Shown here: one piece after another, positions 3,922 through 55,904 of the stretch
Layout: each line of letters opens with the position of its first letter
Numbering within the stretch: the stretch's first letter is position 1
Virus record (IMG/VR): IMGVR_UViG_3300045996_001403
Coordinates: 1-59,962 of that record
Source: a virus
Taxonomy: Duplodnaviria; Caudoviricetes
Direction: 5' to 3' (one strand)
DNA length: 59,962 nucleotides
Program-made: the position numbers and the translations under genes
Notes under the pieces: model-generated
The model's database searches: none
The model's input: only the letters and a program-made list of their open reading frames with translations
Told to the model about the DNA's origin: nothing

Positions 3922-4371
3922 ATGGAACGCGCCGATGTCGCGCGCCTGCTCAACGTGGCGGAAGCCGACGTGTGCCACTACACCGAGACCGACGAGTCCG
4001 TGTCGGTGATGCTGATCGGTGACGTGGCGAGGCTGTGGACCCCCGACGGGGTGTTCGCGGTCAACGACTGCCCGGCCAACCGTCAGCTCCGTCCCATCCC
4101 GGACGAGTGGAGGGCGCGCGGCGGAACCGTCACCCCGCAGCTCGTCATCGTGGGCGAGACCGGCCCGGAGATCGTGGACCTCCCCGCGGGGGAGGTGGTC
4201 ACCGTGTCGCCGCCCCCGGTCGACGAGGTTCCCGACGGCACGGCGGAGCAGGTGCTCGCCTGGGTCGACGGCGACCCCGACCGTGCCGCGCGGGCGATCG
4301 ACGCGGAGCAGTCACGCGACAAGCCCCGCTCGGTGCTGCTGGCCAACCTGAGGAAGGTGGCCGGCTCGTGA
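3922..4371 (+). CDS. Hypothetical head-region protein
   Basis: RBS GGAGG; C-terminal 'VPDGTAEQVLAWVDGDPDRA..A..AE...KPR..LL' motif recognised from actinophage head modules. Confidence 0.65.
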   Translation: MERADVARLLNVAEADVCHYTETDESVSVMLIGDVARLWTPDGVFAVNDCPANRQLRPIPDEWRARGGTVTPQLVIVGETGPEIVDLPAGEVVTVSPPPVDEVPDGTAEQVLAWVDGDPDRAARAIDAEQSRDKPRSVLLANLRKVAGS

Positions 4372-29617: not shown

Positions 29618-30424
29618 GTGACTGACGTGACCCTGTTCGGCCAGTCCCCGTTCGACGCGATCCGCCGGGTCGACGAGAACGGCGAGCACTGGACGGGCCG
29701 CGAGTTGATGCCGCTCCTCGGGTACGAGAAGTGGGAGCGGTTCGTGGATGCGATCCACCGCGCCCAAGCTGTAGCCGCCAACGCGGGCGACACCCAGGCT
29801 TTTTCCCGGCTCCGGGAAGAAGACACCGGTGGTCGCCCCCGCCAGAACTGCCGCATGACGCGCTACGGCTGCTACCTGGTCGCCATGAACGGCGACCCCC
29901 GCAAGCCGGAGATCGCCGCCGCCCAGACCTACTTCGCCGTGAAGACCCGTGAGGCGGAGGTCCGGACGTCCCTCCCGGACATCTCCACCCCGACCGGTGT
30001 TCTCGCGATGGCGGAGCAGTTCGCCGCGACCGCCCGGCAGCTCGTCGCCGCCGAGAAGCGCGTGGCGGAGTTGGAGCCCAAGGCCGCCGCAGTGGACCTC
30101 TACATGGACGCCTCCGAGGTGTTCCTCATCCGCGAGGTCGCCAAGACCCTCGGGGTGAAGGAGTCGGTACTCCGTCAGCACTGCTACGACCGCAAGATCC
30201 TGATGTCTCACCCGGCCCGCCGCAACGAGCCGTACGCGGAGCACGTGACCGCCGGCTACTTCGAGGTGAAGGCTCGCCCGGTTGAGGTGCGCGGCGAGCC
30301 CCGCGCCTTCAACACCACGTACGTCACGACCATCGGGGTGGAGTTCCTGCGCCGCTCGCTCACGCGGGCCGGGCTGCTGGGTGACGGTCCTCGTCTGGTC
30401 GCCATCCCCGGAGGTGTCGCGTGA
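29618..30424 (+). CDS. Antirepressor (BRO/DinD-like N-terminus, ANT/KilAC C-terminus)
   Basis: '[17 protein letters not shown]', '[19 protein letters not shown]', 'LEPKA..IREVAK', '[11 protein letters not shown]'. Confidence 0.85.
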
Positions 30425-39639: not shown

Positions 39640-40155
39640 GTGAAGTCCGGCGATCCCCTCAAGCGCAAGACCCCGCTCAACCCCGGCAAAGGCTTGGCTC
39701 GCACCTCCCCTCTCCGCTCCGCAGGGAACGGACGAGAGGGGAAGGCGAAGGCGGCGCCCAAGAAGTCCGCGCGCGACACAGGGCCGACCAAGGCCATGCG
39801 GGACGCCGTCCTCAGGCGCGACGACTTCACGTGCCAGATGTGCGGCAGGGACATCACCGGCCCCCACTCGCTCCAGCACCGACTGCCCCGCGGCCGGGGC
39901 GGCACGAACACCATGTGCAACCTCGTGACCGTGTGCGGCTCCGCCACGACGCCGGACATGTGCCACGACGACATCGAGAACCAGGCTCGCAAGCGCGCCA
40001 CCCGAGAGGGCTTCCTGGTGCCGTCGAGCCCGCTCATCACCCCCGAGAACTGGCCGGTTCTGCGGTTCCGGGACCACTGGTCCATGCCGGGGGAAACCGG
40101 CTGGACGGAGTGCGAGCCCCATCCGGACCAGCTGACCTGGGGACTCGCGGCGTGA
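39640..40155 (+). CDS. HNH endonuclease
   Basis: 'VLRRDDFTCQMCG..QHRLPRGRGG..NLVTVCG..CH'. Confidence 0.8.
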   Translation: MKSGDPLKRKTPLNPGKGLARTSPLRSAGNGREGKAKAAPKKSARDTGPTKAMRDAVLRRDDFTCQMCGRDITGPHSLQHRLPRGRGGTNTMCNLVTVCGSATTPDMCHDDIENQARKRATREGFLVPSSPLITPENWPVLRFRDHWSMPGETGWTECEPHPDQLTWGLAA

Positions 40156-40459
40156 CCCTGCCCCACCCATCACCACCAAGCAAGGAGGCGAGCATGGACA
40201 CCGTGCACAGGGCGGCGCCGTCGTCGCTGCCGCCCGTGCCGCGGTCACGCCGCTGGCTGTGGCTCGCCTGCTGGGACGGCCGGCTCCCGGCCGAGATGCT
40301 CCACTCCCGCGACCGCGAGGACCTCGTCTGGCATCTCGTGGCCGCGGGCTGGTCGGACCGTCAGATCGCAGAGCACACCCGCATGACCGACTACACCACC
40401 GCCCGCATCCGGTCCCGACTGGAGCTGCCGGCGAACGACTACTACGAGGAGGCTGCCTG

Positions 40460-41347
40460 ATGGCCCGCATCCGCTCCATCAAGCCGGAGTTGCGGACCTC
40501 CGACCTCGTGGCCTCCTGGCCCATCGAGATGCGCTACTTCTTCGTGCTGCTCTGGGGGTACCTGGACGACAAGGGCAGGGGCCTCGACGCGCCCAAGCAG
40601 ATCGCCGGTGACTGCTTCCCGCACGACGAGAAAATCACCTCGACTCACGTCGACAACTGGCTCGAACAGATGCGGGTTGCACTGCGTGGAACGCAAGGAC
40701 CGATCTGCCGCTACGAAGTGGACGGTCGTCGCTACCTCCACTGCGTGAACTGGGGCGAGCATCAGCGACCCAACCGGCCGACTCCGTCACGCCTCCCACC
40801 TTGCCCTTTGCACGAAACACTCAGTGAGCCACTCACTGAGGAACTCACTGAGTCGCTCACTGAGACCCCGTTGAGGGACTCAGTGCCCGGAGCAGGGGAG
40901 CAGGGGAGCAGGGGAGCAGGGGAGCAGTACAACAACACCGCGCACCGCTCCGCGGCGGAGATGTTCGCCCGCTTCTACGCCGCCTACCCCCGCAAGGCCG
41001 GACGCAAGGCAGCGGAGAAGGCGTGGGCCAAAGCCCTCAAGGACGGAACCGATCCGGAGATGCTCGTCCAGGCCGCCGGCCGCTACGCCGGAGAGCGGGC
41101 AGGGCAGGACCCGAAGTTCACCCCCCATCCGGCGACGTGGCTGAACCAGGGCCGCTGGGACGACGACCCCGAACCTGTCGGCCCTCGCGTGTACAACCAG
41201 CCGCAGACGGGCACCGGCTCCCGGCGGATGGACAAGGTCCTCTCTGCCCTCGACCCGAACGATCCGTTCCTCGCCCAGTACGGCCAGGCACCACCCGACT
41301 CCCCCGCCGAACAGTTCCTGGTCATCGAAGGAGGACGCAGCGCATGA
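40460..41347 (+). CDS. Replication initiator protein
   Basis: 'MARIRSIKPE', 'LWGYLDDKGR', 'FYAAYPRKAGRKAAEKAW', 'HPATWLNQGRWDD'. Confidence 0.82.
   Translation: MARIRSIKPELRTSDLVASWPIEMRYFFVLLWGYLDDKGRGLDAPKQIAGDCFPHDEKITSTHVDNWLEQMRVALRGTQGPICRYEVDGRRYLHCVNWGEHQRPNRPTPSRLPPCPLHETLSEPLTEELTESLTETPLRDSVPGAGEQGSRGAGEQYNNTAHRSAAEMFARFYAAYPRKAGRKAAEKAWAKALKDGTDPEMLVQAAGRYAGERAGQDPKFTPHPATWLNQGRWDDDPEPVGPRVYNQPQTGTGSRRMDKVLSALDPNDPFLAQYGQAPPDSPAEQFLVIEGGRSA
40819..40927. repeat. Putative origin iterons within rep: CTCA(G/C)TGAG x4 at 12-bp period, then GGAGCAGG x4.9
   Basis: Repeats read directly in the inter-domain linker of the initiator gene. Confidence 0.75.
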
Positions 41348-41853
41348 ACCCCGCAGAGGCCGGACGCATCCTCGCCGTCGCCATCGGCTTCGACTCCCGG
41401 ATGCCGCAACCCGACCCGCGAGGATTCCTCCGGGGCATCTGGGCCGACGCTCTGGCCGACGTGCCCTACGAGGATGCCTACCGGGTGGTGATCGGCTACT
41501 ACACGTCCGAGCGGTACCTGGACAGGCGCGAGCCGATCTCCCCCGCGGACATCGTCGTCGGCGCCAGGAAGCTCCGCTCCGTCGGCAACGCCCCGGACGT
41601 GAAGTCCCTCCCCGTCGGGGCAGGGTCGTCGGAGGAGGTGCGCGCCTCCGCGATGGCCGCAGCCCGCGAGGTGTTCGCCCGCCTGCCCCAGTTGGCGAAC
41701 GCAGGCCAGATGCCCGCATCGCTGCGCCGGCTGACCCGCAAGGCCCGGAACACCCAGCGGCGAGCAGAGGCGGCAAGCCGCGCGCTGGCCGAACTGGACC
41801 AGCTCGTCCGCGAGACCTCCCCCAACCCCGACACCACCACCGAAGGGGCCTGA
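41344..41853 (+). CDS. Putative helicase loader/inhibitor-like protein
   Basis: Follows rep; 'EAGRILAVA...WADALADVPYEDA...ISPADI'. Confidence 0.55.
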   Translation: MNPAEAGRILAVAIGFDSRMPQPDPRGFLRGIWADALADVPYEDAYRVVIGYYTSERYLDRREPISPADIVVGARKLRSVGNAPDVKSLPVGAGSSEEVRASAMAAAREVFARLPQLANAGQMPASLRRLTRKARNTQRRAEAASRALAELDQLVRETSPNPDTTTEGA

Positions 41854-41856
41854 CCC

Positions 41857-42303
41857 ATGCCCGGACTGCCCGAAGTCACCATGACCGGCACGCTGACCGC
41901 CGATCCCGAGCTGCGTTTCACCCAGGGCGGGCACGCGGTGGTGTCGTTCACCGTCGCCTGCAACGACCGCAAGTTCGACCGGGACTCGAACAAGTGGATC
42001 GACGGTGACGCCACGTTCGTCCGCTGCAACCTGTGGCGCCAGGCCGCCGAGAACGTGGCGGAGTCCCTGACCCGCGGCAACCGCGTGATCGTGGTGGGCC
42101 AGCTCAAGCAGCGGAAGTACACCCCGAAGGACGGCCCCGAGCGCACCGTGTTCGAGCTGGAGGTGTCCGAGGTCGGGCCGTCGCTGCGGTTCGCCACGGC
42201 GAAGGTCAACAAGGCTGACCGCAACGGTGGTGGGCAGTCGGCCCCGGCCTCCGACCCGTGGGGCAGCGCACCGTCCGCCTTCGACACCCCGCCGCCCTTC
42301 TAG
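41857..42303 (+). CDS. ssb: Single-stranded DNA-binding protein
   Basis: 'GTLTADPELRFT', 'WRQAAENVAESLTRG.RVIV', C-terminal 'DTPPPF'. Confidence 0.95.
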   Translation: MPGLPEVTMTGTLTADPELRFTQGGHAVVSFTVACNDRKFDRDSNKWIDGDATFVRCNLWRQAAENVAESLTRGNRVIVVGQLKQRKYTPKDGPERTVFELEVSEVGPSLRFATAKVNKADRNGGGQSAPASDPWGSAPSAFDTPPPF

Positions 42304-42837
42304 CCCGTGATCCTCTGCACGGAGTGCCGGTGTCCGCTCGATCCCCGTCTCGGGCGGACCCGGCACCCCAACCCCCGATGTGATCCGGGCCCGGCGTGGT
42401 GGTTGCGCCCGGAGTGGCAGGAGTGGCTGAGGCAAGCAACGCAGACACCCTCAAAAACACCGTCACAAAACGCCGTAGGGCCACGAACCCCCTCTGCCGC
42501 TAGCGAGGAGACCTGACGACATGGATCTGACCGACTACAACGCTCGCTGGAACTACGCCCGCAAGGTCGAGCGCAACGGCCCGATCAAGCCCACGATCGA
42601 CCACCTGACCCTGCTGGCCCGATCCTGCTGGGACTGGAACGGCGACGAGTTCGGCTCGCCCTCCATGGACCCCAAGCGCCCGTTCGGCAACAGCGACGTC
42701 GAGGACGACATGGCCGAGCTGCTGCCGCACCTCTCCGCGAGTGAGCGGCTGAAGCTGTACTGCGAGCTGCCCGCCGTGCTGGCGTACATCACCAACGACG
42801 ACCGCATGGTGCAGGCCATCGCGGTGGAGGCGCAGCG

Positions 42838-43209
42838 ATGAGCACCCCCAAGCGCATCCAGCGCAGACGGACCGCCGGGTGGCGGATGCCCGAGGGGGCG
42901 GTGTACGTCGGCCGCCCCTCGCGGTGGGGCAACCCGTTCCGGATCGGCGTGCCGTTCTGCGGGCCTACCATCCGCGAACCGCACTCGCCCACCGAGGTGG
43001 TCGACGCGTTCCGCACGTGGATCGCGCTGGACACTCTTGCCCCGCTGTTCTGGGATCGCGAACTGATTGCGGCCCATGTGCAGATGAAGGCTGGGCTCGC
43101 CCGCGGTGACCTGCTTGGCAGGGACCTCGCGTGCTGGTGCCCACTGGACCAGCCGTGTCACGCGGACGTACTGCTCCGCATCGCCAACGAGGAGGAAGAC
43201 CGTGGCTGA
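42838..43209 (+). CDS. DUF4326 protein
   Basis: 'PKRIQRRRT.GWRMP..AVYVGRPSRWGNPF...LACWCPLDQPCHADVL'. Confidence 0.85.
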   Translation: MSTPKRIQRRRTAGWRMPEGAVYVGRPSRWGNPFRIGVPFCGPTIREPHSPTEVVDAFRTWIALDTLAPLFWDRELIAAHVQMKAGLARGDLLGRDLACWCPLDQPCHADVLLRIANEEEDRG

Positions 43210-43977
43210 CGCCATCACCCCCGCCCAGCTTGCCGCCGCCGTGGAGGCATGCCACGTGCCGATGTTCGCTTTCCGCCACCCGAACCGGCAGATCGACGCC
43301 GTCTTGGAGGCCGCGTGGCCCGAGGTGCACGAGGACGACGTGCCCGCCGAGGCGCACCGCGCAGCCCGTGCCGCCGCCGAGGAGGTGCGCGAGGGTGGCG
43401 CCCCCGCGGTCCTCGCGGCCCTGAACGCCGCCGCCCCGTACATGCCCACCGTCGGGACGACCCGTGGCTGACACCCCCACTGCCCGCGTCCTCCTGGACG
43501 CCGCCACCCGAGCGGTGGAGACGGCACACGAGCAGCACCTGACCACCGCCCAGGTTGTGACCGCCGCGGTCCTGCGGGCCCTGTCCGCCGAGCTGGCCTC
43601 CGCCCCCGTGGACTGGCCGGACCCGCTGGACCTGGACGACATGGCGGGCCGGATCGAAAGGGGAGAGGCGTGAGCAACTGCGACGTATGCGGCGAGGAGC
43701 CCTCCGTTGGAGTGGCCAGCGTGCCCGGAATGCCCGTGAGCGTGGCCTACGGCAGGAAGTGCCTACAGGCCAATGCCCACCCGTGGGGGCTATTGGTGGC
43801 GAACACTGCGCTGTGTGGCGGCTTCGATCAGACCGCCGAGTGGTGGCAGGAGATGGTGACGGCCACCTGCGGCCACCTCGGGAGGTCTCTCACCGAGTTC
43901 GAGGCCGACGTTCGAGCCGAGATCATGGAGGAAGGCCGCCGACTTCGCGAGTGGCATGAGACGAGCGAGGACGGCGA

Positions 43978-44535
43978 GTGACCGCGGTCGTCGGCTTGGA
44001 CCTGAGCCTGACCTCCTCCGGCCTGGCCCGCATCACCTGGGGTCGGGACCGGACGGTGGTGACGGAGACGTGGCACCGCGGGGAGGCGGGGGTGACGACC
44101 CTGCCCGACCCGGCGGACCGCTGCACGGCACTGCACCGGCTCAAAGCGGACATCGTGGAGTGGGCGCACCCGGCGCACTTGGTGGTCGTGGAGAAGCTGG
44201 TGCCCAACCCGGTGAGCAGGTCGACGAACGAGCGGGCCGCGCTGTGGTACCTGACGGTGTCGGCCCTGGTCAGCCGGGGCTCGTCGGTGGTCGAGGTGCA
44301 TCCGGGCACGCTGAAGCGCTACGCCACCGGCCGTGGCGGCGCGCCGAAGCAGGAGATGCGGGCAGCGGCGAAGGCCAACTTCCCCGGGGTCGTCACCGCC
44401 TGCTCGGACGAGGACGACGCGCTGTGGCTCGCCGCCCTCGGGGTCCAGGTTCTCGACGGCCCGCTGGAGCACCTGTGGACCGCCGAGCGTCGGGAGATCA
44501 CTGCGGGCATCCGGGCATCCCCGTTCGCCGCCTGA
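43978..44535 (+). CDS. RuvC-like Holliday junction resolvase
   Basis: 'VVGLDLSLTSSG', 'VVVE', 'LKRYATGRGGAPK', 'DEDDA'. Confidence 0.85.
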   Translation: MTAVVGLDLSLTSSGLARITWGRDRTVVTETWHRGEAGVTTLPDPADRCTALHRLKADIVEWAHPAHLVVVEKLVPNPVSRSTNERAALWYLTVSALVSRGSSVVEVHPGTLKRYATGRGGAPKQEMRAAAKANFPGVVTACSDEDDALWLAALGVQVLDGPLEHLWTAERREITAGIRASPFAA

Positions 44536-44544
44536 CCGGGAGGG

Positions 44545-44760
44545 CTACTCGGGGGCGGGGTCGCCCGCGAGGTCGGGGCGGTGCTCCTTGATCCAAGCCT
44601 CGACGTCCTCGACTCGCCATACCGCCCCCATGGCGAGGGTGTCGTAGGGCTCGGGCCAGTCGGGGCGACGGGTGAGTTGGTAGACGCGCTGTCGGCTGAC
44701 GCCGAGACGGTCTTCGATCTCGCGGGCGCCCATGAGGTGTTTCGGCACATCGGTCAACAT
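44545..44760 (-). CDS. AlpA-like HTH regulator (leaderless)
   Basis: 'LMGAREIEDRLGVSRQRVYQL..PDWPEP..L..G.VW..EDVEAW'; TAGTCT 7 nt before the ATG. Confidence 0.82.
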   Translation of the reverse strand: MLTDVPKHLMGAREIEDRLGVSRQRVYQLTRRPDWPEPYDTLAMGAVWRVEDVEAWIKEHRPDLAGDPAPE

Positions 44761-44767
44761 AGACACC

Positions 44768-44819
44768 AGACTAGTAGGCACTTGCCAACTGAACAATGGA
44801 CTACTAGTCTCGTGCCTAC
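44768..44819. promoter_or_regulatory. Mirror-symmetric divergent promoters with inverted repeats
   Basis: AGACTAGTAG (44768-77)/CTACTAGTCT (44801-10); rightward TTGCCA-17-TAGTCT; leftward TTGTTC-17-TAGTCT. Confidence 0.8.
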
Positions 44820-44864
44820 CCCCCCTGGCGGGGGGCACGAGGACCGCCACCTTCGGAGGAAGAC

Positions 44865-45434
44865 ATGACCGCAGCCACCGCCCGTACCGTCACCACCTCG
44901 GTCCGCCGTGCCCTCCGCTCCGCTGGCCTGCTGGACGCGGTGGTCAAGACCGGCACCCGCCAGGACGGAGACACCTGGGTAACCAACGTCGAGACCGTCA
45001 CCAAGGACCAGGCCGCGGTCGTGGCGGACGACCTGCGCGCCACCTTCCCGGCGGTGGAGGTCCGGGGCGGCATGAACTTCTTCGAGGTCCGGATCACCCA
45101 GCCGGTCGCCACCCCCGAGCCCGCGCCGGTCGTCGAGGAGCAGCCCGCAGCCAAGCCGGTCAAGCGGTGGAAGTCCCGCGACGAGATCCAGGCGGAGCGG
45201 GACAGCCTGGACATGGAACAGGTCAACGAGCTGGTGGACTTCCTGTTCACCGCGTGGCGGGGGCACCGGCTCACGAGCGCCGCCAAGGCGGTCCGCCTGG
45301 AGCACGCCCGGGACCAGGTCCTGCTGGAGTGGGTGGACCACTACCTGAGCGAGCGCATCGGCAGCGTCTCGCCGGTCTACCTCGCGCCGATCCCCGGCAC
45401 CCGCAACTACCTGCTCGACAAGGTCTACGCCTGA
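44865..45434 (+). CDS. Hypothetical protein, first gene of the cassette
   Basis: RBS GGAGGA, strongly GC3-biased codons. Confidence 0.7.
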   Translation: MTAATARTVTTSVRRALRSAGLLDAVVKTGTRQDGDTWVTNVETVTKDQAAVVADDLRATFPAVEVRGGMNFFEVRITQPVATPEPAPVVEEQPAAKPVKRWKSRDEIQAERDSLDMEQVNELVDFLFTAWRGHRLTSAAKAVRLEHARDQVLLEWVDHYLSERIGSVSPVYLAPIPGTRNYLLDKVYA

Positions 45435-45444
45435 TCAACCTCAC

Positions 45445-45505
45445 GGCGAAACGGGACTCCGGTCCCGTCTCCCGGATTGGCATTCCGGGACTGACGAGCC
45501 TGCCG
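45445..45505 (+). ncRNA. Type II hammerhead ribozyme with loop-I pseudoknot
   Basis: GGC-GAAA-CGGGAC(TCCG)GTCCCG-TC-TCCCGGA(TTGGCAT)TCCGGGA-CTGACGA-GCC-TGCCG: all core residues and three stems; GUC cleavage after 45469. Confidence 0.92.
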
Positions 45506-45521
45506 CACCAGAGGAGACGAC

Positions 45522-46196
45522 ATGACCGCCGCCCTGTTGGACTCGCACATCACCGCCACCGTCCGCCTCGCCGCAACCCACCTCACCAACGGCAAGCTCC
45601 CCGTCCCCGCCCGCATCCGCGAGCAGTTCGCCCCCGACGCCAAGATCCGCGTCGACCTCATCGACGCGTTCGGCGGCTCCCGCAGCCTCGGCACCTTCAC
45701 CGCGCGGCAGACCGGCATCACCCTCACCGGCATCACCTGGCCCGAGGACATGCGCGCCGACGAGCGCGTCGAGCTGAGCGTCATGCGCGGCGGCGACTCC
45801 CGGTGGATCGGCGTCTACATCGACACCACCCCCGCCCCGGCCGAGCCCCCGAAGCCCGAGTCCGTGCAGGGCGCCGTGCAGATCCTGTCCCGCGAGATCG
45901 TCGCCACCGCCCAGATCAACGGCGGCACCCGCGTTGTCGAACTGTCCATCATCGGGAACACCGACGGGCGCCGGACCTGGACCACCTACCGGACCGCCGC
46001 CTACGACTCCAACCACCCCAACCCCTACCCCTCGGTGGGCATCGGCCCCGCCGACACCCCGGAGCAGATCGAGGCCGCCCGCGCCGACGCGAGCACCCTG
46101 CTCGACCCCAGCGGCGACCCGCAGTGCTGCGACTGCTGGTCTGGTTGGGACCCCTACTGCGGCAAGACCGGCTGCTGGGGCGTCTACCGCCCCTGA
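45522..46196 (+). CDS. Hypothetical protein with Cys-rich C-terminus
   Basis: RBS GAGGAG just 3' of the ribozyme; 'QCCDCW..YC...C'. Confidence 0.7.
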   Translation: MTAALLDSHITATVRLAATHLTNGKLPVPARIREQFAPDAKIRVDLIDAFGGSRSLGTFTARQTGITLTGITWPEDMRADERVELSVMRGGDSRWIGVYIDTTPAPAEPPKPESVQGAVQILSREIVATAQINGGTRVVELSIIGNTDGRRTWTTYRTAAYDSNHPNPYPSVGIGPADTPEQIEAARADASTLLDPSGDPQCCDCWSGWDPYCGKTGCWGVYRP

Positions 46197-46264
46197 TCCC
46201 CGGCGGGGCGGGCTCCACTTCGCCGCCCGCCCCGCCTCCCGCCTCACCGCCAGAGGAGAACCCC

Positions 46265-46420
46265 GTGCGCACCGGCACCGAGACCTTCACCACCGCCTGC
46301 CTGCCCGTCACCTACGACCAGTCCCGCGCCGACGCCGGCCTGCCGCCGTGGGCCAGCGAGGACGGCGGCCAGTACTTCCTGGACTCCGAGGTCATCGAGA
46401 CCTCCGACCAGGAGGGCTGA
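46265..46420 (+). CDS. Small protein, paralog of 33812-34018
   Basis: RBS GAGGAG; shared 'EDGGQYFLDSEV' motif. Confidence 0.65.
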   Translation: MRTGTETFTTACLPVTYDQSRADAGLPPWASEDGGQYFLDSEVIETSDQEG

Positions 46421-46653
46421 CCCGTGTCCGCCATGTCCAAACTCGACGCCACCCTCCGCTCCCTCGGTTACCCCGTCCACTTGGACGACGACGGCCGGGG
46501 AGACCCGTGGGTGCAGACCGGTCCCGACGCGTTCCAGTTCGTCATCTTCGGCATGTCCGGGCCGCGTATGGCCCACGGCGCCCTCACCCGTGCGCAGGTG
46601 GAGTCCCACTGCGGCCGGCTCGTGCCGCTCCCCGACTGACAGGAGAATGATCA

Positions 46654-47199
46654 GTGCCTCCGCTCAAGCATCACTCCATCAGTTCGTCCGCCCGATCGCT
46701 GTCCGACCTCGTGCACTCCGTCGACTCCGGCGACCTCGACCTGTCCCCGCCGTACCAGCGCGGCGACGTGTGGACCGACGCGCAGCGCGCCAACCTGATC
46801 AAGTCCATCCTGATCGGCATCCCGATCGCGGCGATCGTGCTGAACCGCCGCGGCGACAACCGGGCATGGGAGCAGCGCACGGGCAGGCTCAAGATGAGCG
46901 AGCCCTACTTCGCTTGCATCGACGGCAAGCAGCGCCTGACCACGGTCGGCCTGTGGCTGAACGACGGACTGTGGGTGCCGGGCGAGTGGTTCGACGGGGT
47001 GTACGGCGCGGCCGTCGTGACCTACCAGATGCTGCCGGTGGTCACCCAGCGGTTCTTCCTCAACCGCGCCGTCATTCCGGTTGCCGAAGCCACGCTGGGC
47101 AGCGTCGAAGAGGAGGCGGAGGTGTACGACCTCATCAACTCCGCTGGCACCGCGCACACCCGGGCCGACCTGGACCGCGCCCGCGCACTGCGGGCCTGA
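46654..47199 (+). CDS. Stand-alone DUF262 (ParB/GmrSD N-terminal-like) protein
   Basis: 'PPYQRGDVW', 'LIKSILIGIPI', 'IDGKQRLTT'. Confidence 0.85.
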   Translation: MPPLKHHSISSSARSLSDLVHSVDSGDLDLSPPYQRGDVWTDAQRANLIKSILIGIPIAAIVLNRRGDNRAWEQRTGRLKMSEPYFACIDGKQRLTTVGLWLNDGLWVPGEWFDGVYGAAVVTYQMLPVVTQRFFLNRAVIPVAEATLGSVEEEAEVYDLINSAGTAHTRADLDRARALRA

Positions 47200-49052
47200 C
47201 TCCGGAGCGCCGCAGGCCCGCCCCGGAGGGGCCCGGAACACCCCCTGACCACCCTCTCCCTACCAACCTCCAGAAGGGCCCGACATGAGCATCAGGCAGA
47301 TCCCCGAGCCGACCACCGTCGAGGAGTTGGCGGCCCGCCTCGTCACCACCGCGAAGTCCGCGATGGCGGCAGGATCACCGGAGGAGGTGGTGCGCGAGGT
47401 GCTGATGGGCCTGGCCAGCAGCCGGGTATCGGCACGTCGCGGGCGGAATGCCGACGTCGTGCCGCTGGCCGTGGTCCGCGAGCTGGCCGCCGAGGTCGCG
47501 CGCTCGAAGCACGGCCGGTCCTGACCCCCGTATCCCGCACCAAGCCCCAGGAGGAGAGAAGTGGACACCCCGCCCCGGCGCACCGAGGTACGCCACCGCA
47601 TCCTGCACGCCGCGTCCATCGGCAAGGTCCGCCTTGCCCCGAAGGGCAGCGCCCGCGAGTGGGACTTCAAGGTGTACTTCACGACCTACCCGCAGATGGC
47701 CCGCGCGGCGAACACGCTCTGGGAGGCCGGCTTGCTCCAGTTCTCCGACGACTTCGAGGTGCTGCCGACCACCGCGGGCGACAACGAGCTGTACCGGTGG
47801 AACAACCGCTACGGCCGCACGACCTTCTGACCACCCTCTCCCTCTGTTCCCGGAAGGGGAAGACATGACCTCCGATGCGGCTCCATCGCGACGTAGGGGG
47901 ACGACCAAGCCAAGACGGTTGCTCACACTTGCGAAGCGCGTTCCCATCGAAGTGGCCCTGATGATGTGGCGTTGGATCGCCGGTCTGCACGAACCGATCG
48001 ACATTGGCCCGCCGACCTACACGTGGTGCTCCTACTGTGCGGTCCCGTGGCCGTGCGATTCGTTCGTGTCGGCCACCGACATGATCGAGAGTCTGACCGG
48101 AGGTGCTACCAGTGACCAACCATGATCCGGCTACGCCGGGGGCCTCCGGCACTCCGATGGACCTGGTGGGCAAGACCGTGCGGTGGGAGCACGAAGGTCG
48201 CTGGTTCACCGCGAACGTGACGAAGTTCCAGCCCGAGGTCGGGGTGTGGGACTGCGTGGTGGTGGACCCGGGCACGTTCCGGTTCTGGGAGCCGGGTCAC
48301 GAGACCTACTTCGGCGTGCGCGAGCTGGTCACCGTCATCGACTCCGAGCCCTACACCGAAGACGAGGAGTGCGAGTGATCCGCTACACCGATGTCGCGGC
48401 CGTGGACACCACCTGGGCCGTGAGAATCACCCCGTTAATCTCCACCACGCTGTCCACGGTGCGGGAGATGCTGAAGCTGGCTTCCTACAGCGCACCCCTC
48501 ACCGCCTACGCCAGCGGGTCCGAGGACGAGATTTACTCGATCATCCTCGCCCGCGACCCGTCCCGCACTCACGGCACACCCAGCCCGGAGGACTGCGATC
48601 GGGCCGTTCGGGAGATCACGGCTATCAGCCACTGGACCGCCACGTACCGCACCACCGGATCGATGGTGGCCATGGGGTTGAGGGAGGGCTACGACCCGGA
48701 CGCGCACGTGTGGACCATCGACGAGGTCCGTGCCGTCTGCCCCGGCGTGCCCGCTGCCGCGGTGCACCTGCTGTCGGCCCGCCGCACCGGAGACGAGGTC
48801 CAATGGTGGGAGGAGCCGTGCGCCCTCCTCACCCCCGCTGCTGTCGACGTCGAACTGATGGATCACCTGGCGCACGGGATGAGCCAGGACCGCTACACCG
48901 TGACCGACTGGACCGCCGGCCGCACCCACGCCCGCGCGCGAACCCGAGGAGCATCCGTGGAGACCTGCCTGAACTGCTGGCGAGCCGACCAGGGCGACGC
49001 GAGCCACTGCGGCTCCTGCCCCTGCTGCACCCCGACCGAGGAGTCCTGACCC

Positions 49053-49559
49053 GTGGACATCGAGACCTACATGCGCGAGGCCCGACGCTTCGACAACCAC
49101 CGCCCGGAGGCCATGCTCGACGCTCTGGTCCACGGGCTCATGGCAGAGGTGGGGGAGGTGTGGGGGTGTCTTCTTGATCGGGACTACGGCCTGGGCGTGC
49201 TCCATGAGATGGGCGACGTGGCGTGGAACGTCGCGCGACTCGCGGACGTCGTTGGTGTGCCGCCAGCCGAACTGGTTCGCGACCAGTGGGAGCCAGCGGT
49301 TGACGACCTTGCGGCAGCTGGCGAGCTGGTGCGCCATGCGGCAGCAGTGGCGGGATTGCTGGAGAAGTCGCATCGTATTGTCAAGTTCCCTTGGGATTTG
49401 CATGACAGAATCGCCCAAGCCTTGCATGAAACTTGGCAGGCCCTTGAGTGTTATGCGGGCTGGCATAGGTATGGCATGGACGTGGTCATGCGGACCAACA
49501 TCGACAAGCTCACCGCCCGGTACGCCGAGCGTGGACTGACCGTCAAGGAGGCGTCGTGA
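49053..49559 (+). CDS. MazG-like NTP pyrophosphohydrolase
   Basis: 'GLMAEVGEV', 'EMGDVAWN', 'NIDKLTARY'. Confidence 0.7.
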   Translation: MDIETYMREARRFDNHRPEAMLDALVHGLMAEVGEVWGCLLDRDYGLGVLHEMGDVAWNVARLADVVGVPPAELVRDQWEPAVDDLAAAGELVRHAAAVAGLLEKSHRIVKFPWDLHDRIAQALHETWQALECYAGWHRYGMDVVMRTNIDKLTARYAERGLTVKEAS

Positions 49560-50452
49560 CCAGCCCGAAGTGGCCAGTCGTCGGAGCCGAGGTCGTCGTG
49601 TGGTGCGAGGTCGACGGTGAGAAGTACCACCATGTGCGAGCCGGTCACGTCTACTGGGTCGGCCCGTCTTCGTTCACCGTCGTCCCCGGGGACGACCTGC
49701 ACTACGCCATTGACACCTGCTCCGCGTGGCAGGGATACGGACGGAACGCGGTGACATGGTGGGTGGTGCCAGCTGGCTCGGGCCGGGCCGCTGCCGCGTG
49801 GGCGGCCCAGGACAACCGGCGTCGCGCCGACAAGGCGGTGTGGGCGGTGTCCGACTGGATCAAGGCCCGGAGCAGGGAGACGCGTGAGCGCGCCATCCAG
49901 GCTCTACAGGCGATCGAGATGGACAGGGAAGACATGCTAATCGAAACCGAGGAGGCGTCGTGACCGAGCCCCCTTCCGCTCTCCTGGAAAGAGCGGCGGC
50001 CCTGATCCAGCAGCGGGCGGAGGCGATTCGCTCTCCGGAGTACTGGGACCGCGAGGTGCGCGGCGCGGACATGAGCGAGGCAGGCGCGGCTTGGGCGAAG
50101 TTGACTTCCCCCTCTGTCGCCCCTCCTCTCGTGGAGTGGCTGCGACGGTCGGCCGGTGACATCGAGGTTCACGTTGCCGCATGGCGGTCCACCAACGGGT
50201 ATCACCCGCCGCGCAGCGAGGAGGCGGTGGCACGGCTGGTTGAGCACCACTTCGGCCCCGCTCTCGCCTTCGCCCGCACCATCCTGGGTGAGCATCCCGC
50301 CCACGACTGGGTGTTCCCGTACGACGCCCATCCCGGTGCCCGGGAGTGCCGGACGTGCGGGGCGCACGACGACGCGGCGCCCTGCCGCTACCCGCATTGA
50401 ACTGCGAAAACTGCTAGAATCCACTGTGTACACCACGACCCGAGAGGCCATC

Positions 50453-53982: not shown

Positions 53983-54066
53983 GGAAGATGGCGGCGCTGG
54001 TGCGCCAAACCGGTTGCTAGCCGGTCGCCGGGTTAATGCCCGAGGGTTCGACTCCTTCATCTTCCT
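53983..54066 (+). tRNA. Non-canonical tRNA-Ser(GCT) with 8/4 (or 7/5) fold and long variable arm
   Basis: GGAAGATG/CATCTTCC acceptor; GGCGC-TGGT-GCGCC D-arm; ACCGG-TTGCTAG-CCGGT anticodon arm; CGGG..CCCG variable arm; AGGG-TTCGACT-CCTT T-arm. Confidence 0.85.
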
Positions 54067-54493
54067 CGGAGGCGCGTCCATCACGGGCGCGCCTACCCAA
54101 AACTGCGGGGTGCGAGAGCCCCGCGGATCCGGCCACGACCCCTTGAGCGCTGGCGGCGGCGATGCGCTCGGGGTCGTGGCCCCCTAACGTTCGGGAGGTG
54201 CGGTGAGCGCGGCGCGCAAGCGAAGGAAGCTCAGTAAGTCCCACCTCACATGGGAGAACCCATACACGGGCGAGAAGCAGTACACCTCGGGCAAGGGTGC
54301 GGTGTTCGCAGCCCGCTTCGATCGCCTGTGGAACAAGCGCAAGCTGTCCGATCCGTCCTACCTGACGGGACGGTCGTTGGCGAATGCTCCGGTGAAGTAC
54401 TCGCGCTGCCCCACCTGCGCAGGAGCGCCGCATCACCCGCCGTCGTTCTTCATGGCACGCTGAGCCTCGCCGCCCGACTCTGAGGGGGTGTCC

Positions 54494-54721
54494 ATGTCCC
54501 TCGCCTCCGCTCTCGGCACGCCCCCGACCCGTCGTCGGGACTGCAAGGTCAAGGACATCGTCGACCAGCTCGCCCCCGAGGACCGCGAGATCCTGAACCG
54601 AGCCTGGAGCACGCACTCCGCCGACGCCATCGCCAAGGCCTTGACCGAGGATGGCCATCCTGTCGCCGCGTCTACTGTGACCCGGCATCGTCTGGGTCGG
54701 TGTAGCTGTGCCGCTCGGTGA
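54494..54721 (+). CDS. Small Cys/His HTH-like protein coupled to the phosphoesterase
   Basis: 'DCKV..IAKAL..TVTRHRLGRCSC'. Confidence 0.6.
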   Translation: MSLASALGTPPTRRRDCKVKDIVDQLAPEDREILNRAWSTHSADAIAKALTEDGHPVAASTVTRHRLGRCSCAAR

Positions 54722-55904
54722 GCGCCTGGCGCAGCCGGTGCAGCCGGACGCCCGCCGCCCCCGTCGAGGTCATCCTCGCGGTGACGAGCTGGACGTCCGC
54801 TACGACGCCGCCAAGGGCGTGGTGGAAGTCGAAGGCCGCGAGACCGTGGTGCCGATCGGCGCCGAAGAGGCTCAGTGGCGCGCGGACATCACCCGCGTCA
54901 CGGGCTTCGCCATCCCCGACCACCGCCGGGTGGAACTGACCGACGTCCGCCGCTGGGGAGACCCGGCGGAGCCGTACGTGTACTGCCGCTACCGCATCGT
55001 GGACCGCGAGTCCGAGGGCGAGCGGCTGGACGTCGAAGACCTGGTGTGCGCGGTCAAGGCCGTGCGACGCAAGACCGCCCCGGTACCCGTGGGTACCGAG
55101 CGGGCGCTGATCGTCCCCTGGGCCGATCTCCAGGTGGGCAAGGTCGGCTCCCGAGGTGACTCCGAAGACCTCGTGAACCGGGTGCTAGAGAAGCTCGACG
55201 CCCTGGAGGCCCACGCCCGCGCGGTGAAGGCCGACACGGCGTACCTGATCGACGTGGGCGACTGCGTCGAGTCGTTCGAGAACACCCCGCAACAGGGCTT
55301 CACCAACGACCTCAGCTTCCCCGAACAGCTGCGCCTCGCGCGCCGGTTGTTCACCGAGGCCGCTCTCCGCCTGTCGAAGCTCCACTCCCGGGTGGTGTGC
55401 GCCGCGGTGCCGTCCAACCACGGGCGCTGGAGGCGCGGCAAGGACGCCCTCGGCAAGCCGGGGGATGACTACGGCATCGAGACCCTGACGGCGGTGGCGG
55501 ACGCGTTCGCGCTCAACCCCGACGCGCTCGGTCACGTGTCCTTCGTGGTGCCGGGCGTGTGGGAGGAGTCGTTGACGCTGGACGTGTACGGCACCCTGCT
55601 GGGTGTGGTGCACGGCCACCAGGTCAACCGCCCCGAACGCCTCGCCTCCTGGTGGGCGGGACAGGCCCACGGCGGCCAGCCGGTCGCGGACGCGGACATT
55701 CTGCTGAGTGGTCACTTCCACCACCTGTGGGTCACGGCAACGGGCAGGTCGGCGCACACGGGCCGTTCGAAGTGGCTCATGCAGGCGCCCACGCTCGACA
55801 ACGGGTCGGACTGGTACCGGCTCCGCTCGGGCCACGACTCCGACCCGGCCCTGATGGTGTTCACCGTGGACGCCAACGGCTGGGACGGCCTCAAGCTCCT
55901 CTAG
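54708..55904 (+). CDS. Calcineurin-like metallophosphoesterase
   Basis: 'ADLQVGK', 'VGDCVE', 'SNHG', 'HGHQ', 'GHFHH'. Confidence 0.85.
   Translation: MPLGERLAQPVQPDARRPRRGHPRGDELDVRYDAAKGVVEVEGRETVVPIGAEEAQWRADITRVTGFAIPDHRRVELTDVRRWGDPAEPYVYCRYRIVDRESEGERLDVEDLVCAVKAVRRKTAPVPVGTERALIVPWADLQVGKVGSRGDSEDLVNRVLEKLDALEAHARAVKADTAYLIDVGDCVESFENTPQQGFTNDLSFPEQLRLARRLFTEAALRLSKLHSRVVCAAVPSNHGRWRRGKDALGKPGDDYGIETLTAVADAFALNPDALGHVSFVVPGVWEESLTLDVYGTLLGVVHGHQVNRPERLASWWAGQAHGGQPVADADILLSGHFHHLWVTATGRSAHTGRSKWLMQAPTLDNGSDWYRLRSGHDSDPALMVFTVDANGWDGLKLL

What the first reader, a model, noticed from the sequence alone, without database searches (positions are those of the whole stretch)
45445..45505. 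Self-cleaving type II hammerhead ribozyme between two early genes
Seen: perfect core (CUGACGA, GAAA, GUC), stems I (7 bp), II (3 bp) and III (6 bp plus A-U), and loop-I UGGCA able to pair with 3' UGCCG (45501-45505), the pseudoknot known for type II hammerheads. Cleavage after 45469 would leave a 5'-OH, hairpin-capped mRNA 52 nt before the ATG at 45522, with the pseudoknot 5 nt from the RBS. Hammerheads are known in phages, but their role is largely unresolved. Inference: control of mRNA stability or translation.
Basis: partly seen in the sequence, partly recalled or inferred. Interest (0 to 1): 0.85.

Follow-up and report, generated by a model that had tools for sequence, protein, structure and literature searches.

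The report
Type II hammerhead ribozyme in actinophage
A textbook self-cutting RNA (type II hammerhead ribozyme) fills the gap between two unknown genes of an uncultured high-GC soil phage; it is a new example of a known kind, whose role in phages is still unproven.

Summary
Window 45444-45508 (+) matches Rfam Hammerhead_II (RF02276) at 42.1 bits, above the gathering score of 37 (E 3e-5). It is the only ribozyme hit in the 59,962-bp phage record, even at E<=1. One slip of mine: stem II's 3' strand is 45498-45500.

A model built from 94 hammerheads of other (pro)phages scores the site at 69 bits; the next best place in the window scores 14. Across 131 distinct family members the helices and the pseudoknot covary.

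The family is widespread in high-GC phages. It occurs as arrays of 8-13 copies in Streptomyces phages (Arquatrovirinae) and in a Pseudonocardiaceae genome. The window has one copy.

In 90 of 124 cases with a detectable downstream gene, the start codon lies 10-19 nt after the ribozyme; in the window it is 13 nt.

Most likely function: cutting a bicistronic mRNA, leaving each half capped by a hairpin. No RNA or cleavage data exist. Homologues of the downstream gene and the phage's capsid relatives lack the ribozyme.

Verdict: real, a new member of a known kind, of modest interest.

The parts
45444..45508 (+). Type II hammerhead ribozyme, full Rfam match
   Evidence: RF02276, 42.1 bits against a gathering score of 37, model positions 1-66 of 66. 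R2 gives 69.0 bits.
45445..45447 (+). Stem II, 5' strand (GGC). Pairs with 45498-45500 (GCC).
   Evidence: Sequence. Family helix 1 is 99.7% paired.
45448..45451 (+). Core G12 A13 A14 A15.1 (GAAA)
   Evidence: Sequence. Invariant in A3.
45451..45468 (+). Stem III hairpin (A-U plus 6 bp, loop UCCG). Becomes the 3'-terminal hairpin of the upstream product.
   Evidence: Sequence. Present in the MFE fold. Family helix 2 is 96.6% paired, with 6 of 7 pairs changed on both sides.
45469..45470 (+). Predicted scissile bond, between C45469 (C17) and U45470 (1.1)
   Evidence: Position in the Rfam alignment and the GUC triplet. Cleavage itself was not tested.
45470..45490 (+). Stem I hairpin (7 bp, loop UUGGCAU). 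Becomes the 5'-terminal hairpin of the downstream product.
   Evidence: Sequence. MFE folds. Family helix 3 is 98.0% paired, with 7 of 7 pairs changed on both sides.
45491..45497 (+). Core C3 U4 G5 A6 N7 G8 A9 (CUGACGA; N7 = C)
   Evidence: Sequence. CUGANGA is invariant in A3.
45498..45500 (+). Stem II, 3' strand (GCC)
   Evidence: Sequence.
45501..45505 (+). 3' tail UGCCG. Forms the pseudoknot with loop-I UGGCA (45478-45482).
   Evidence: Sequence. The family pseudoknot is 84.6% paired. Pair 86-120 reads UA in 49 and AU in 44 sequences. The pseudoknot was not part of the model that made the alignment.
45511..45524 (+). Shine-Dalgarno GAGGAG and the ATG (45522) of the 224-aa gene
   Evidence: Sequence. 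The start lies 13 nt after the model end, inside the family's modal 10-19 nt bin.
44865..45434 (+). Upstream gene, 189 aa, unknown function. Its stop codon ends 9 nt before the ribozyme match.
   Evidence: GC1/2/3 0.70/0.46/0.95. No Pfam or PHROG hit. One partial homologue in 5.8 billion proteins.
45522..46196 (+). Downstream gene, 224 aa, unknown function, with a Cys/Trp-rich C-terminus
   Evidence: GC3 0.97. Nine homologues, some from Actinosynnema and Lentzea. AF2 pLDDT 77, with no fold match at E<=0.001.
46202..46236 (+). Perfect 12-bp G+C hairpin right after the 224-aa gene. Possible 3' stabiliser or terminator without a U-tract.
   Evidence: Sequence. In soil run X1 one contig places this hairpin directly before a near-identical hammerhead. 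The terminator scan does not call it.
44734..44864 (.). Lower-GC (57-59%) gap with a 25-nt inverted repeat (44760-44784 / 44794-44818). Lies between a small minus-strand HTH-like ORF (44546-44733) and the 189-aa gene. Possible divergent promoter/operator of the unit that holds the ribozyme.
   Evidence: (I10). Inference only: the consensus promoter scan found 0 sites in 40000-50000.

Best explanation
The element is a genuine, probably active type II hammerhead ribozyme. It is transcribed as part of the mRNA that runs from the 189-aa gene into the 224-aa gene. Once stems I-III and the loop-I/tail pseudoknot have folded, the RNA cuts itself between C45469 and U45470.

The upstream product then ends in the stem III hairpin with a 2',3'-cyclic phosphate. 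The downstream product begins with a 5'-OH whose first nucleotide is already paired in the 7-bp stem I hairpin. A fixed 52-nt leader follows, carrying the Shine-Dalgarno sequence.

The inferred consequence is that the two cistrons are uncoupled. Each gets a defined, hairpin-capped end and its own stability and translation. This would be a natural counterpart of the synthetic ribozyme insulators used to normalise 5' UTRs.

Shown here: the sequence and structure match, family covariation, and the stereotyped position before start codons. Inferred: transcription, cleavage, and the effect on stability and translation.
For: (1) Rfam RF02276 gives 42.1 bits against a gathering score of 37. All core nucleotides and the three core-adjacent pairs are canonical, so the site meets the acceptance rules quoted in the Methods passage of PMC3088659.

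(2) Model R2, built from other loci, gives 69.0 bits. The next best place in the window gives 14.1.

(3) Family covariation over 131 distinct sequences:
- 94.7% of cells paired, against 71.6% in shuffles (0 of 500 shuffles reach the observed value).
- Covariation score 0.537 against 0.144.
- Slid controls give 30-49% paired.
- The pseudoknot, which was not modelled, is 84.6% paired and shows a UA/AU swap (49/44).

(4) The ribozyme lies on the same strand as both flanking genes and fills 65 of the 87 nt between them. No promoter- or terminator-like site lies between them.

(5) Family position. Of 150 aligned hits, 124 have a detectable downstream ORF, and 90 of those start 10-19 nt after the model end (window: 13). 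Of 125 with an upstream ORF, 75 have their stop 0-19 nt before the ribozyme (window: 9).

(6) The MFE fold of 45435-45524 contains stems III and I exactly as predicted. The cleaved leader keeps stem I at its very 5' end.

(7) Literature:
- Type II hammerheads with this pseudoknot are active in vitro, cluster in prophages flanking single genes, and were proposed to process long phage transcripts (PMC3088659, passages).
- RiboJ-type hammerhead insulators 'normalize the 5'-UTR', and uncleaved mRNA decays faster (PMC7536230, passages).
Against: - There are no RNA data: no RNA run holds the region. Cleavage cannot be tested here.
- Conservation at the same genomic position could not be shown.
  - The 3 genomic and 3 metagenomic loci that encode homologues of the 224-aa protein have no hammerhead.
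  - The 4 viral records with a related capsid have none above 13.3 bits.
  - So this gene does not need the ribozyme.
- RNAfold prefers pairing 5' CGGCG (45444-45448) with the tail UGCCG over stem II plus the pseudoknot. The fold is only modestly better than shuffles: z -2.16, with 7 of 200 shuffles as good. RNAfold cannot model pseudoknots.
- A 5'-OH can mark an mRNA for decay rather than protect it. The glmS product is degraded by RNase J1 (PMC11780869, passage). RNase J is present in the likely host clade.
- The position counts include many near-identical copies from related phages, so they are not independent.
Confidence: 0.7

Rival explanations
1. Same ribozyme, opposite outcome. Cleavage down-tunes the 224-aa gene: the 5'-OH end makes the downstream fragment a substrate for RNase J, as with the glmS ribozyme. 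The ribozyme would then set a low ratio of the second to the first gene product.
For: The glmS ribozyme's 5'-hydroxyl product is degraded by RNase J1 (PMC11780869, passage). RNase J homologues above the NCBIfam cut-off are present in the Actinosynnema genome G005 and in G084, 2 each.
Against: - The first nucleotide after the cut is paired in a 7-bp G+C-rich hairpin. From recalled knowledge, 5'-end-dependent nucleases need an unpaired 5' end.
- In arrays, nearly every gene would be destabilised, which is hard to rationalise.
- Uncleaved RiboJ mRNAs decay faster than cleaved ones (PMC7536230).
Confidence: 0.13
2. The ribozyme is a portable boundary module. A conserved 65-nt element travels with, or recombines between, gene cassettes of unrelated actinophages. 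Its presence here reflects cassette exchange more than any need of these two genes.
For: - A soil contig (X1) carries the same hammerhead (1 difference in 65) behind a different left flank: the 46192-46236 hairpin.
- The flanking genes have no homologues in 138 loci that hold family members or relatives.
- Family members occur in phages that share no terminase with the window: 0 of 4.
- Ends of similarity between 10 Streptomyces-phage loci fall within 10 nt of a hammerhead in 35% of 645 cases, against 10% for random positions.
Against: - The enrichment disappears against the proper control. Hammerhead junctions have 5.62 ends per window of about 146 nt; hammerhead-free gene junctions have 3.55 per window of about 67 nt.
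- No exact copy of the window's stem I plus core exists in IMG/VR.
- The nearest family member is only 79% identical.
- The X1 evidence is a single low-depth contig.
Confidence: 0.1
3. It is an inactive relic or a neutral hitch-hiker: a hammerhead-shaped sequence that is no longer used.
For: It is a single copy with no syntenic counterpart in relatives. Some phage hammerheads are slow or inactive in vitro (PMC3088659).
Against: There is not one core deviation, mispair or bulge in 22 predicted pairs. The score is above Rfam's threshold. The spacing to the start codon matches the family mode. A decaying relic would be expected to show defects.
Confidence: 0.05
4. It is a chance match in G+C-rich DNA with no RNA function.
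For: High-GC DNA folds into many hairpins. The MFE z-score is only -2.16.
Against: E is 3e-5 against all of Rfam for the whole window. There is a 55-bit gap to the next best site in 120 kb of both strands. The site is intergenic and on the sense strand.
Confidence: 0.02

Closest known systems
Type II hammerhead ribozymes of bacteria and prophages (Rfam RF02276; Perreault et al. 2011, PMC3088659)
   Same: - Identical core.
[quoted passage not shown]
- Watson-Crick pseudoknot between loop I and the 3' tail.
- Intergenic position in phage DNA, on the sense strand of small genes of unknown function.
   Different: - It is a single copy in a complete 60-kb phage record, rather than a cluster.
- The host clade is probably Pseudonocardiaceae (Actinomycetota), inferred only from homologues of one protein. 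The word 'Actinobacteria' does not occur in that paper's main text. Its supplementary alignments could not be read.
Hammerhead arrays in Streptomyces phages of the Arquatrovirinae (e.g. Daudau, MF766045) and in a Pseudonocardiaceae genome (G084), found here
   Same: - Same subfamily: loop-I UGGC(A) with tail (U)GCC.
- Same length.
- Same placement, 10-19 nt before a start codon.
- Stems I and III covary with the window's copy.
   Different: - Those genomes carry 8-13 copies in 6-10 kb. The window carries one.
- No shared flanking genes and no shared terminase.
- The nearest copy is 79% identical.
Synthetic ribozyme insulators (RiboJ and variants)
   Same: A hammerhead placed just upstream of the ribosome-binding site cuts away upstream RNA. 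The mRNA then starts with a defined, structured leader (PMC7536230).
   Different: RiboJ is an engineered ribozyme with an added 23-nt hairpin. Here the 5' hairpin is stem I of the ribozyme itself, and the upstream RNA is a coding mRNA that also gains a 3' hairpin. The functional equivalence is inferred, not tested.
glmS ribozyme
   Same: Self-cleavage in a bacterial mRNA leader produces a 5'-OH downstream product whose fate decides gene expression (PMC11780869).
   Different: glmS belongs to a different fold and depends on a metabolite. Its product is destabilised, and it sits in a host gene, not in a phage operon.

Membership tests
Hammerhead ribozyme, type II (RF02276) | Conserved core C3 U4 G5 A6 N7 G8 A9 / G12 A13 A14 / A15.1-U16.1 / H17 | tested here: met
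   CUGACGA at 45491-45497, GAAA at 45448-45451, A45451-U45468, C45469. Aligned without core mismatches by cmscan.
Hammerhead ribozyme, type II (RF02276) | Three helices around the core, with intact pairs next to it (10.1-11.1, 1.1-2.1, 15.1-16.1) | tested here: met
   G45498-C45447, U45470-A45490 and A45451-U45468. Stems of 3, 7 and 7 bp with no mispair. Covariation in the family.
Hammerhead ribozyme, type II (RF02276) | Type II permutation: stems I and III are capped by loops, and the strand ends lie in stem II | tested here: met
   The order is stem II 5' strand, GAAA, stem III hairpin, cleavage site, stem I hairpin, CUGANGA, stem II 3' strand.
Hammerhead ribozyme, type II (RF02276) | Pseudoknot of 4 or more pairs between loop I and the nucleotides just 3' of stem II | tested here: met
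   UGGCA 45478-45482 with UGCCG 45501-45505, 5 pairs including one G.U. The family helix is 84.6% paired, with changes on both sides in 4 of 5 pairs.
Hammerhead ribozyme, type II (RF02276) | Score at or above Rfam's curated gathering threshold | tested here: met
   42.1 bits against 37. The same result came from the genome search.
Hammerhead ribozyme, type II (RF02276) | Site-specific self-cleavage giving 2',3'-cyclic phosphate and 5'-OH ends | not testable with these tools
   This needs in vitro transcription or end-specific RNA sequencing. No RNA run was listed.
Clustered prophage hammerheads flanking single genes (Perreault 2011, Fig. 3 legend and text) | Several hammerheads close together, bracketing genes | tested here: not met
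   There is exactly one hit in the window, with filters off and with all Rfam families at E<=1. It works like these hammerheads, but it is a solo copy.

The most novel reading that the evidence does not exclude
In high-GC actinophages, the type II hammerhead plus the Shine-Dalgarno sequence that follows it at a fixed distance may form a portable, self-contained 'expression boundary'. It would convert long transcripts into monocistronic mRNAs. Each mRNA would have a 3' end sealed by stem III and a 5' end sealed by stem I, which makes it a natural ribozyme insulator.

Some phages would use it gene by gene: 8-13 copies in Streptomyces phages that can be grown in the laboratory. The window's phage would use it once, inside a promoter, gene, ribozyme, gene, hairpin module.

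The near-identical copy behind a different flank in a soil contig would then show such modules being exchanged between phages.
Probability: 0.3. Interest if true: 0.6.

Novelty: new member of a known kind. Interest (0 to 1): 0.3.

Why it matters
On its own, the element adds one more well-formed type II hammerhead to a class described in 2011.

Its value lies in context. What hammerheads do in bacteria and phages is still called an open question (PMC6155905, passage). Following this copy led to a coherent subfamily in actinophages with two useful properties:

- Its position relative to start codons is stereotyped.
- It occurs as unannotated arrays in cultured Streptomyces phages: 8 hits at Rfam's threshold in 9.5 kb of phage Daudau.

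Those phages and their hosts are genetically tractable. The processing/insulator hypothesis could therefore be tested there directly, and the window's solo copy offers a minimal two-gene case for reporter assays.

I found no paper on ribozymes in Streptomyces phages or actinobacteriophages in the held library. Supplementary alignments of PMC3088659, and Rfam's full hit lists, may already contain them, and I could not see those.

Tried and rejected
- **Cleavage-dependent unmasking of the Shine-Dalgarno sequence.** The MFE fold pairs CCUC (45439-45442, upstream fragment) with GAGG (45511-45514). Across 134 distinct family members, the upstream-flank/downstream-flank duplex energy equals that of permuted partners: -6.19 against -6.16 kcal/mol, with 74 of 200 permutations as low. 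Rejected as a family feature.
- **Hammerheads as recombination hot spots.** The apparent enrichment is explained by their intergenic position.
- **Conservation at the same genomic position.**
  - No relative of either flanking protein in IMG/VR or in cultured phages.
  - The capsid relatives L002-L005 lack the ribozyme.
  - Homologues of the 224-aa protein in Actinosynnema and Lentzea genomes and in three metagenome contigs lack it.
- **Other ribozymes in the window.** None at E<=1.
- **Function of the flanking proteins.**
  - No hits in Pfam or PHROGs.
  - The AF2 model of the 224-aa protein (pLDDT 77.2) has no PDB or BFVD match at E<=0.001.
  - Weak partial resemblance of residues about 118-194 to Rad52/Erf-type annealing folds (E 0.06-0.4).
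  - Weak resemblance of the N-terminal part to B3-like barrels (TM under 0.5).
  - The motif LPVPARIREQ recalls AbrB/MazE-type domains. This is recalled, not tested.
  - The Atlas gave nothing usable for the 189-aa protein.
  - These are leads only.
- **RNA evidence.** No RNA holder was listed.
- **Laid soil DNA contigs.** They cover the stretch only in short pieces. One X2 contig joins 44790 to 45511, skipping the 189-aa gene and the ribozyme. It has only 20 letters on one side, so I give it no weight.
- **Promoter scan.** 0 sites in 40000-50000. My reading of TTGCCA (44782-44787), a 17-nt spacer and TAGTCT (44805-44810) as a promoter is by eye, and the tool does not support it.
- **Supplements of papers** were not opened. 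Dataset S1 of PMC3088659 may bear on whether actinophage hammerheads are already listed.

Full report
**What the window is.** The window is a complete 59,962-bp IMG/VR virus record of about 69% G+C.
- Structural genes lie at the left end: terminase 511-2217, portal 2470-3909 and a 1009-aa protease/capsid fusion 4035-7064.
- A long run of mostly plus-strand non-structural genes lies to the right: Ant-like 29618-30424 and exonuclease 54708-55904, SSB 41857-42303, DUF4326 42838-43209 and GmrSD_N 46654-47199.
- There is no DNA match to a cultured phage in the region tested (44000-47000). The capsid fusion's best match there is 33% identity.
- The host is unknown. The only homologues of the gene downstream of the finding that carry an organism name come from Actinosynnema and Lentzea, which points to Pseudonocardiaceae. 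That is an inference from one protein.

**The observation.**
- Stem II is GGC 45445-45447 with GCC 45498-45500.
- GAAA is at 45448-45451.
- Stem III is A45451-U45468 plus six pairs, with loop UCCG.
- The cleavage-site nucleotide is C45469.
- Stem I is 45470-45476 with 45484-45490, with loop UUGGCAU.
- CUGACGA is at 45491-45497.
- The tail UGCCG (45501-45505) is complementary to loop-I UGGCA (45478-45482).
- The leader to the ATG at 45522 is 52 nt, and GAGGAG begins 5 nt after the tail.

Rfam's Hammerhead_II model matches 45444-45508 end to end at 42.1 bits (gathering score 37, E 3e-5 for the whole window). At E<=1 no other ribozyme family matches anywhere in the window. The upstream stop codon (45432-45434) ends 9 nt before the match, so the ribozyme fills 65 of the 87 intergenic bases.

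**Relatives of the element.** Conservation at the same genomic position could not be found.
- Neither flanking protein has a relative in IMG/VR or in cultured phages.
- Four viral records with a 52-57% identical capsid have no hammerhead above 13.3 bits.
- The three genomic and three metagenomic loci that encode homologues of the 224-aa protein have none.

Relatives at the family level are abundant.
- A scan of 151 Pseudonocardiaceae genomes with RF02276 found one genome (G084) with six hits in 5.4 kb, 5 of them over the cut-off, and one genome with a sub-threshold hit. The other 149 had none. Only 31 candidates per genome were scored in that scan.
- The G084 copies share the window's loop-I UGGCA and tail UGCC but have different, compensating stems.
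- A pattern built from three conserved motifs found at least 116 stretches in IMG/VR.
- A covariance model built from the window plus five G084 copies (R1) found 173 matches at E<=0.01 in 39 of 83 sources. It found 74 more in a further 46 sources.
- In the window it found only the one site: 79.8 bits, with the next at 13.6 and filters off.
- A second model (R2), built from 94 matches of other loci only, scores the window's site at 69.0 bits, with the next at 14.1.

**Covariation.** On the 150 best matches (131 distinct), I counted the three helices plus the pseudoknot, which I added by hand.
- 94.7% of cells form standard pairs, against 71.6% in shuffles (0 of 500 reach the observed value).
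- The covariation score is 0.537 against 0.144.
- Sliding the partners by 1-3 columns gives 30-49% paired.
- Stem I has changes on both sides in 7 of 7 pairs, and stem III in 6 of 7.
- The pseudoknot is 84.6% paired. Pair 86-120 splits UA 49 / AU 44. Pair 85-122 shows CG 72, UG 24, UA 9 and GC 3.

Caveats:
- Helices 1-3 were fitted by the model.
- Many rows come from related phages.
- The pattern fixed the loop motif in the seeds. It did not fix the tail, and it did not fix the many extra copies found in the same loci.

**Where the family lives.** The array-bearing contigs include complete Streptomyces phage genomes.
- L066 is phage Daudau (Arquatrovirinae). 144 Streptomyces phage records match its right arm.
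- Rfam's own model at its gathering score finds 8 hammerheads in 9.5 kb of Daudau, and 7 in the G084 region.
- None is annotated in the Daudau record. The genes there are small ORFs, among them an OCR-like antirestriction protein, an acetyltransferase, an HNH endonuclease and a dNMP kinase.
- Copy number per complete record ranges from 1 (window) through 2 (G158, G159) to 8 (G161).
- These phages share no terminase with the window: 0 of 4.
- The nearest family member is 79% identical over aligned columns.
- No exact copy of the window's stem I plus core exists in IMG/VR.

**Position relative to genes.** I took the 150 aligned hits and called ORFs by GC3.
- 124 have a downstream ORF. The start codon lies 10-19 nt after the model end in 90 of them, 0-9 nt in 12, 20-29 nt in 11, overlapping by up to 10 nt in 4, and 80 nt or more away in 7. 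The window's distance is 13 nt.
- 125 have an upstream ORF. The stop lies 0-19 nt before the ribozyme in 75 of them. The window's distance is 9 nt.

The family is therefore placed so that the cut RNA begins with stem I and runs straight into a ribosome-binding site. These counts are inflated by related phages and by my simple ORF rule.

**The local unit in the window.**
- Upstream of the 189-aa gene lies a 131-bp gap of 57-59% G+C. It holds a 25-nt inverted repeat.
- Beyond the gap, on the minus strand, is a 62-aa ORF with coding-like composition. It has a weak HTH_17 match of 19.6 bits, below the cut-off of 27.
- After the 224-aa gene comes a perfect 12-bp G+C hairpin, 46202-46213 with 46225-46236.

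I read this as regulator, promoter/operator, 189-aa gene, ribozyme, 224-aa gene, hairpin. The promoter is inferred only, because the consensus scan finds none.

**A second context.** I laid contigs of four soil DNA runs on 44000-47000. One 631-nt contig of run X1 (depth 4.6) joins three pieces:
- window 46192-46236, the hairpin, with 2 differences;
- five other letters;
- window 45445-45509, the ribozyme, with 1 difference.

The 500 nt before these pieces do not match the stretch. A near-identical ribozyme therefore exists behind a different left flank. This rests on a single low-depth contig.

**Mechanism.** The best-supported reading is self-cleavage of the bicistronic RNA at C45469/U45470. 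Type II topology has a consequence that follows directly from the structure:
- The upstream product ends in the stem III hairpin with a 2',3'-cyclic phosphate.
- The downstream product starts with stem I, with its first nucleotide paired.
- Loop I and the tail both remain in the downstream product, so the pseudoknot may persist 5 nt before the Shine-Dalgarno sequence.

Folding supports stems III and I, and stem I in the cleaved leader.

By analogy with RiboJ-type insulators (PMC7536230, passages), and with the proposal that phage hammerheads process long transcripts (PMC3088659, passages), I infer that the cistrons are uncoupled and given defined, protected ends.

The opposite outcome is possible. 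The glmS product's 5'-OH leads to RNase J1 decay (PMC11780869, passage), and RNase J is present in G005 and G084. I rate this lower because the 5' end is buried in a hairpin. The idea that an unpaired 5' end is required is recalled knowledge, not tested here.

**Ideas tested and dropped.**
- An anti-Shine-Dalgarno pairing across the ribozyme, seen in the MFE fold, is not enriched in the family.
- An excess of similarity breakpoints at hammerheads vanishes when compared with hammerhead-free gene junctions.

**Comparison with what is known.** The element meets every sequence-level criterion of the type II hammerhead family, as set out in the membership table. It differs from the published 'clustered' arrangement in being a solo copy.

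Reviews still describe the role of prokaryotic hammerheads as open and note their link with phages (PMC6155905, passages).

Searches of the held library for hammerhead or ribozyme together with actinobacteriophage, Streptomyces or Streptomyces phage found nothing relevant. Supplements and Rfam's hit lists were not available to me.

**Verdict.** The element is real, well formed and probably active, and it is a new member of a known kind. I put confidence at 0.7 that it is a functional processing ribozyme. The sign of its effect on expression is open. Interest is 0.3. The by-products may be worth more than the finding itself: the stereotyped spacing and the unannotated arrays in cultured Streptomyces phages.

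Noticed in passing
L140 (MF766045, Streptomyces phage Daudau, record 40396-49896) and L023 (G084:C1:4246000-4264000): These loci hold arrays of type II hammerheads. Rfam's gathering score finds 8 in 9.5 kb of Daudau's right arm and 7 in the G084 region; my model R1 finds 13 there. None is annotated in the Daudau record. 144 Streptomyces phage records match that arm.
   Followed up: partly
window 46192-46236 and 45445-45509: One 631-nt soil contig (run X1) joins the 12-bp hairpin that follows the 224-aa gene directly to a near-identical hammerhead (1 difference), with 5 other letters between them. The same ribozyme therefore occurs behind a different flank.
   Followed up: partly
window 44546-44864: A minus-strand 62-aa ORF has coding-like composition and a sub-threshold HTH_17 match. 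Next to it is a 57-59% G+C gap with a 25-nt inverted repeat (44760-44784 / 44794-44818). This is probably a divergent regulator and operator in front of the 189-aa gene.
   Followed up: partly
window 44790 to 45511: One contig of soil run X2 joins these two places, skipping the 189-aa gene and the ribozyme. It has only 20 letters on one side and depth 2, so it is too weak to use.
   Followed up: no
window 40819-40928: There are two tandem repeat blocks. One has three 12-nt-spaced copies of a palindromic ACTCAGTGAG-type unit. The other has four 8-nt-spaced copies of GGAGCAGG. They could be an origin or an iteron-like region (D3, D4, I14).
   Followed up: no
L010 433-536 (Actinosynnema contig): A tRNA match (52.3 bits) has 38 nt where the 7-nt anticodon loop is expected. 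It lies about 3.5 kb upstream of the homologue of the 224-aa protein.
   Followed up: no
window 53983-54067: A phage tRNA-Ser (GCT) also scores 42.2 bits on the tRNA-Sec model, below that model's threshold of 47. This is probably just its long variable arm.
   Followed up: no
window 4035-7064: A 1009-aa ORF fuses protease and major-capsid regions (phrog_29592, E 1.4e-241). Its nearest cultured relative is a Microcystis phage at 33% identity.
   Followed up: no
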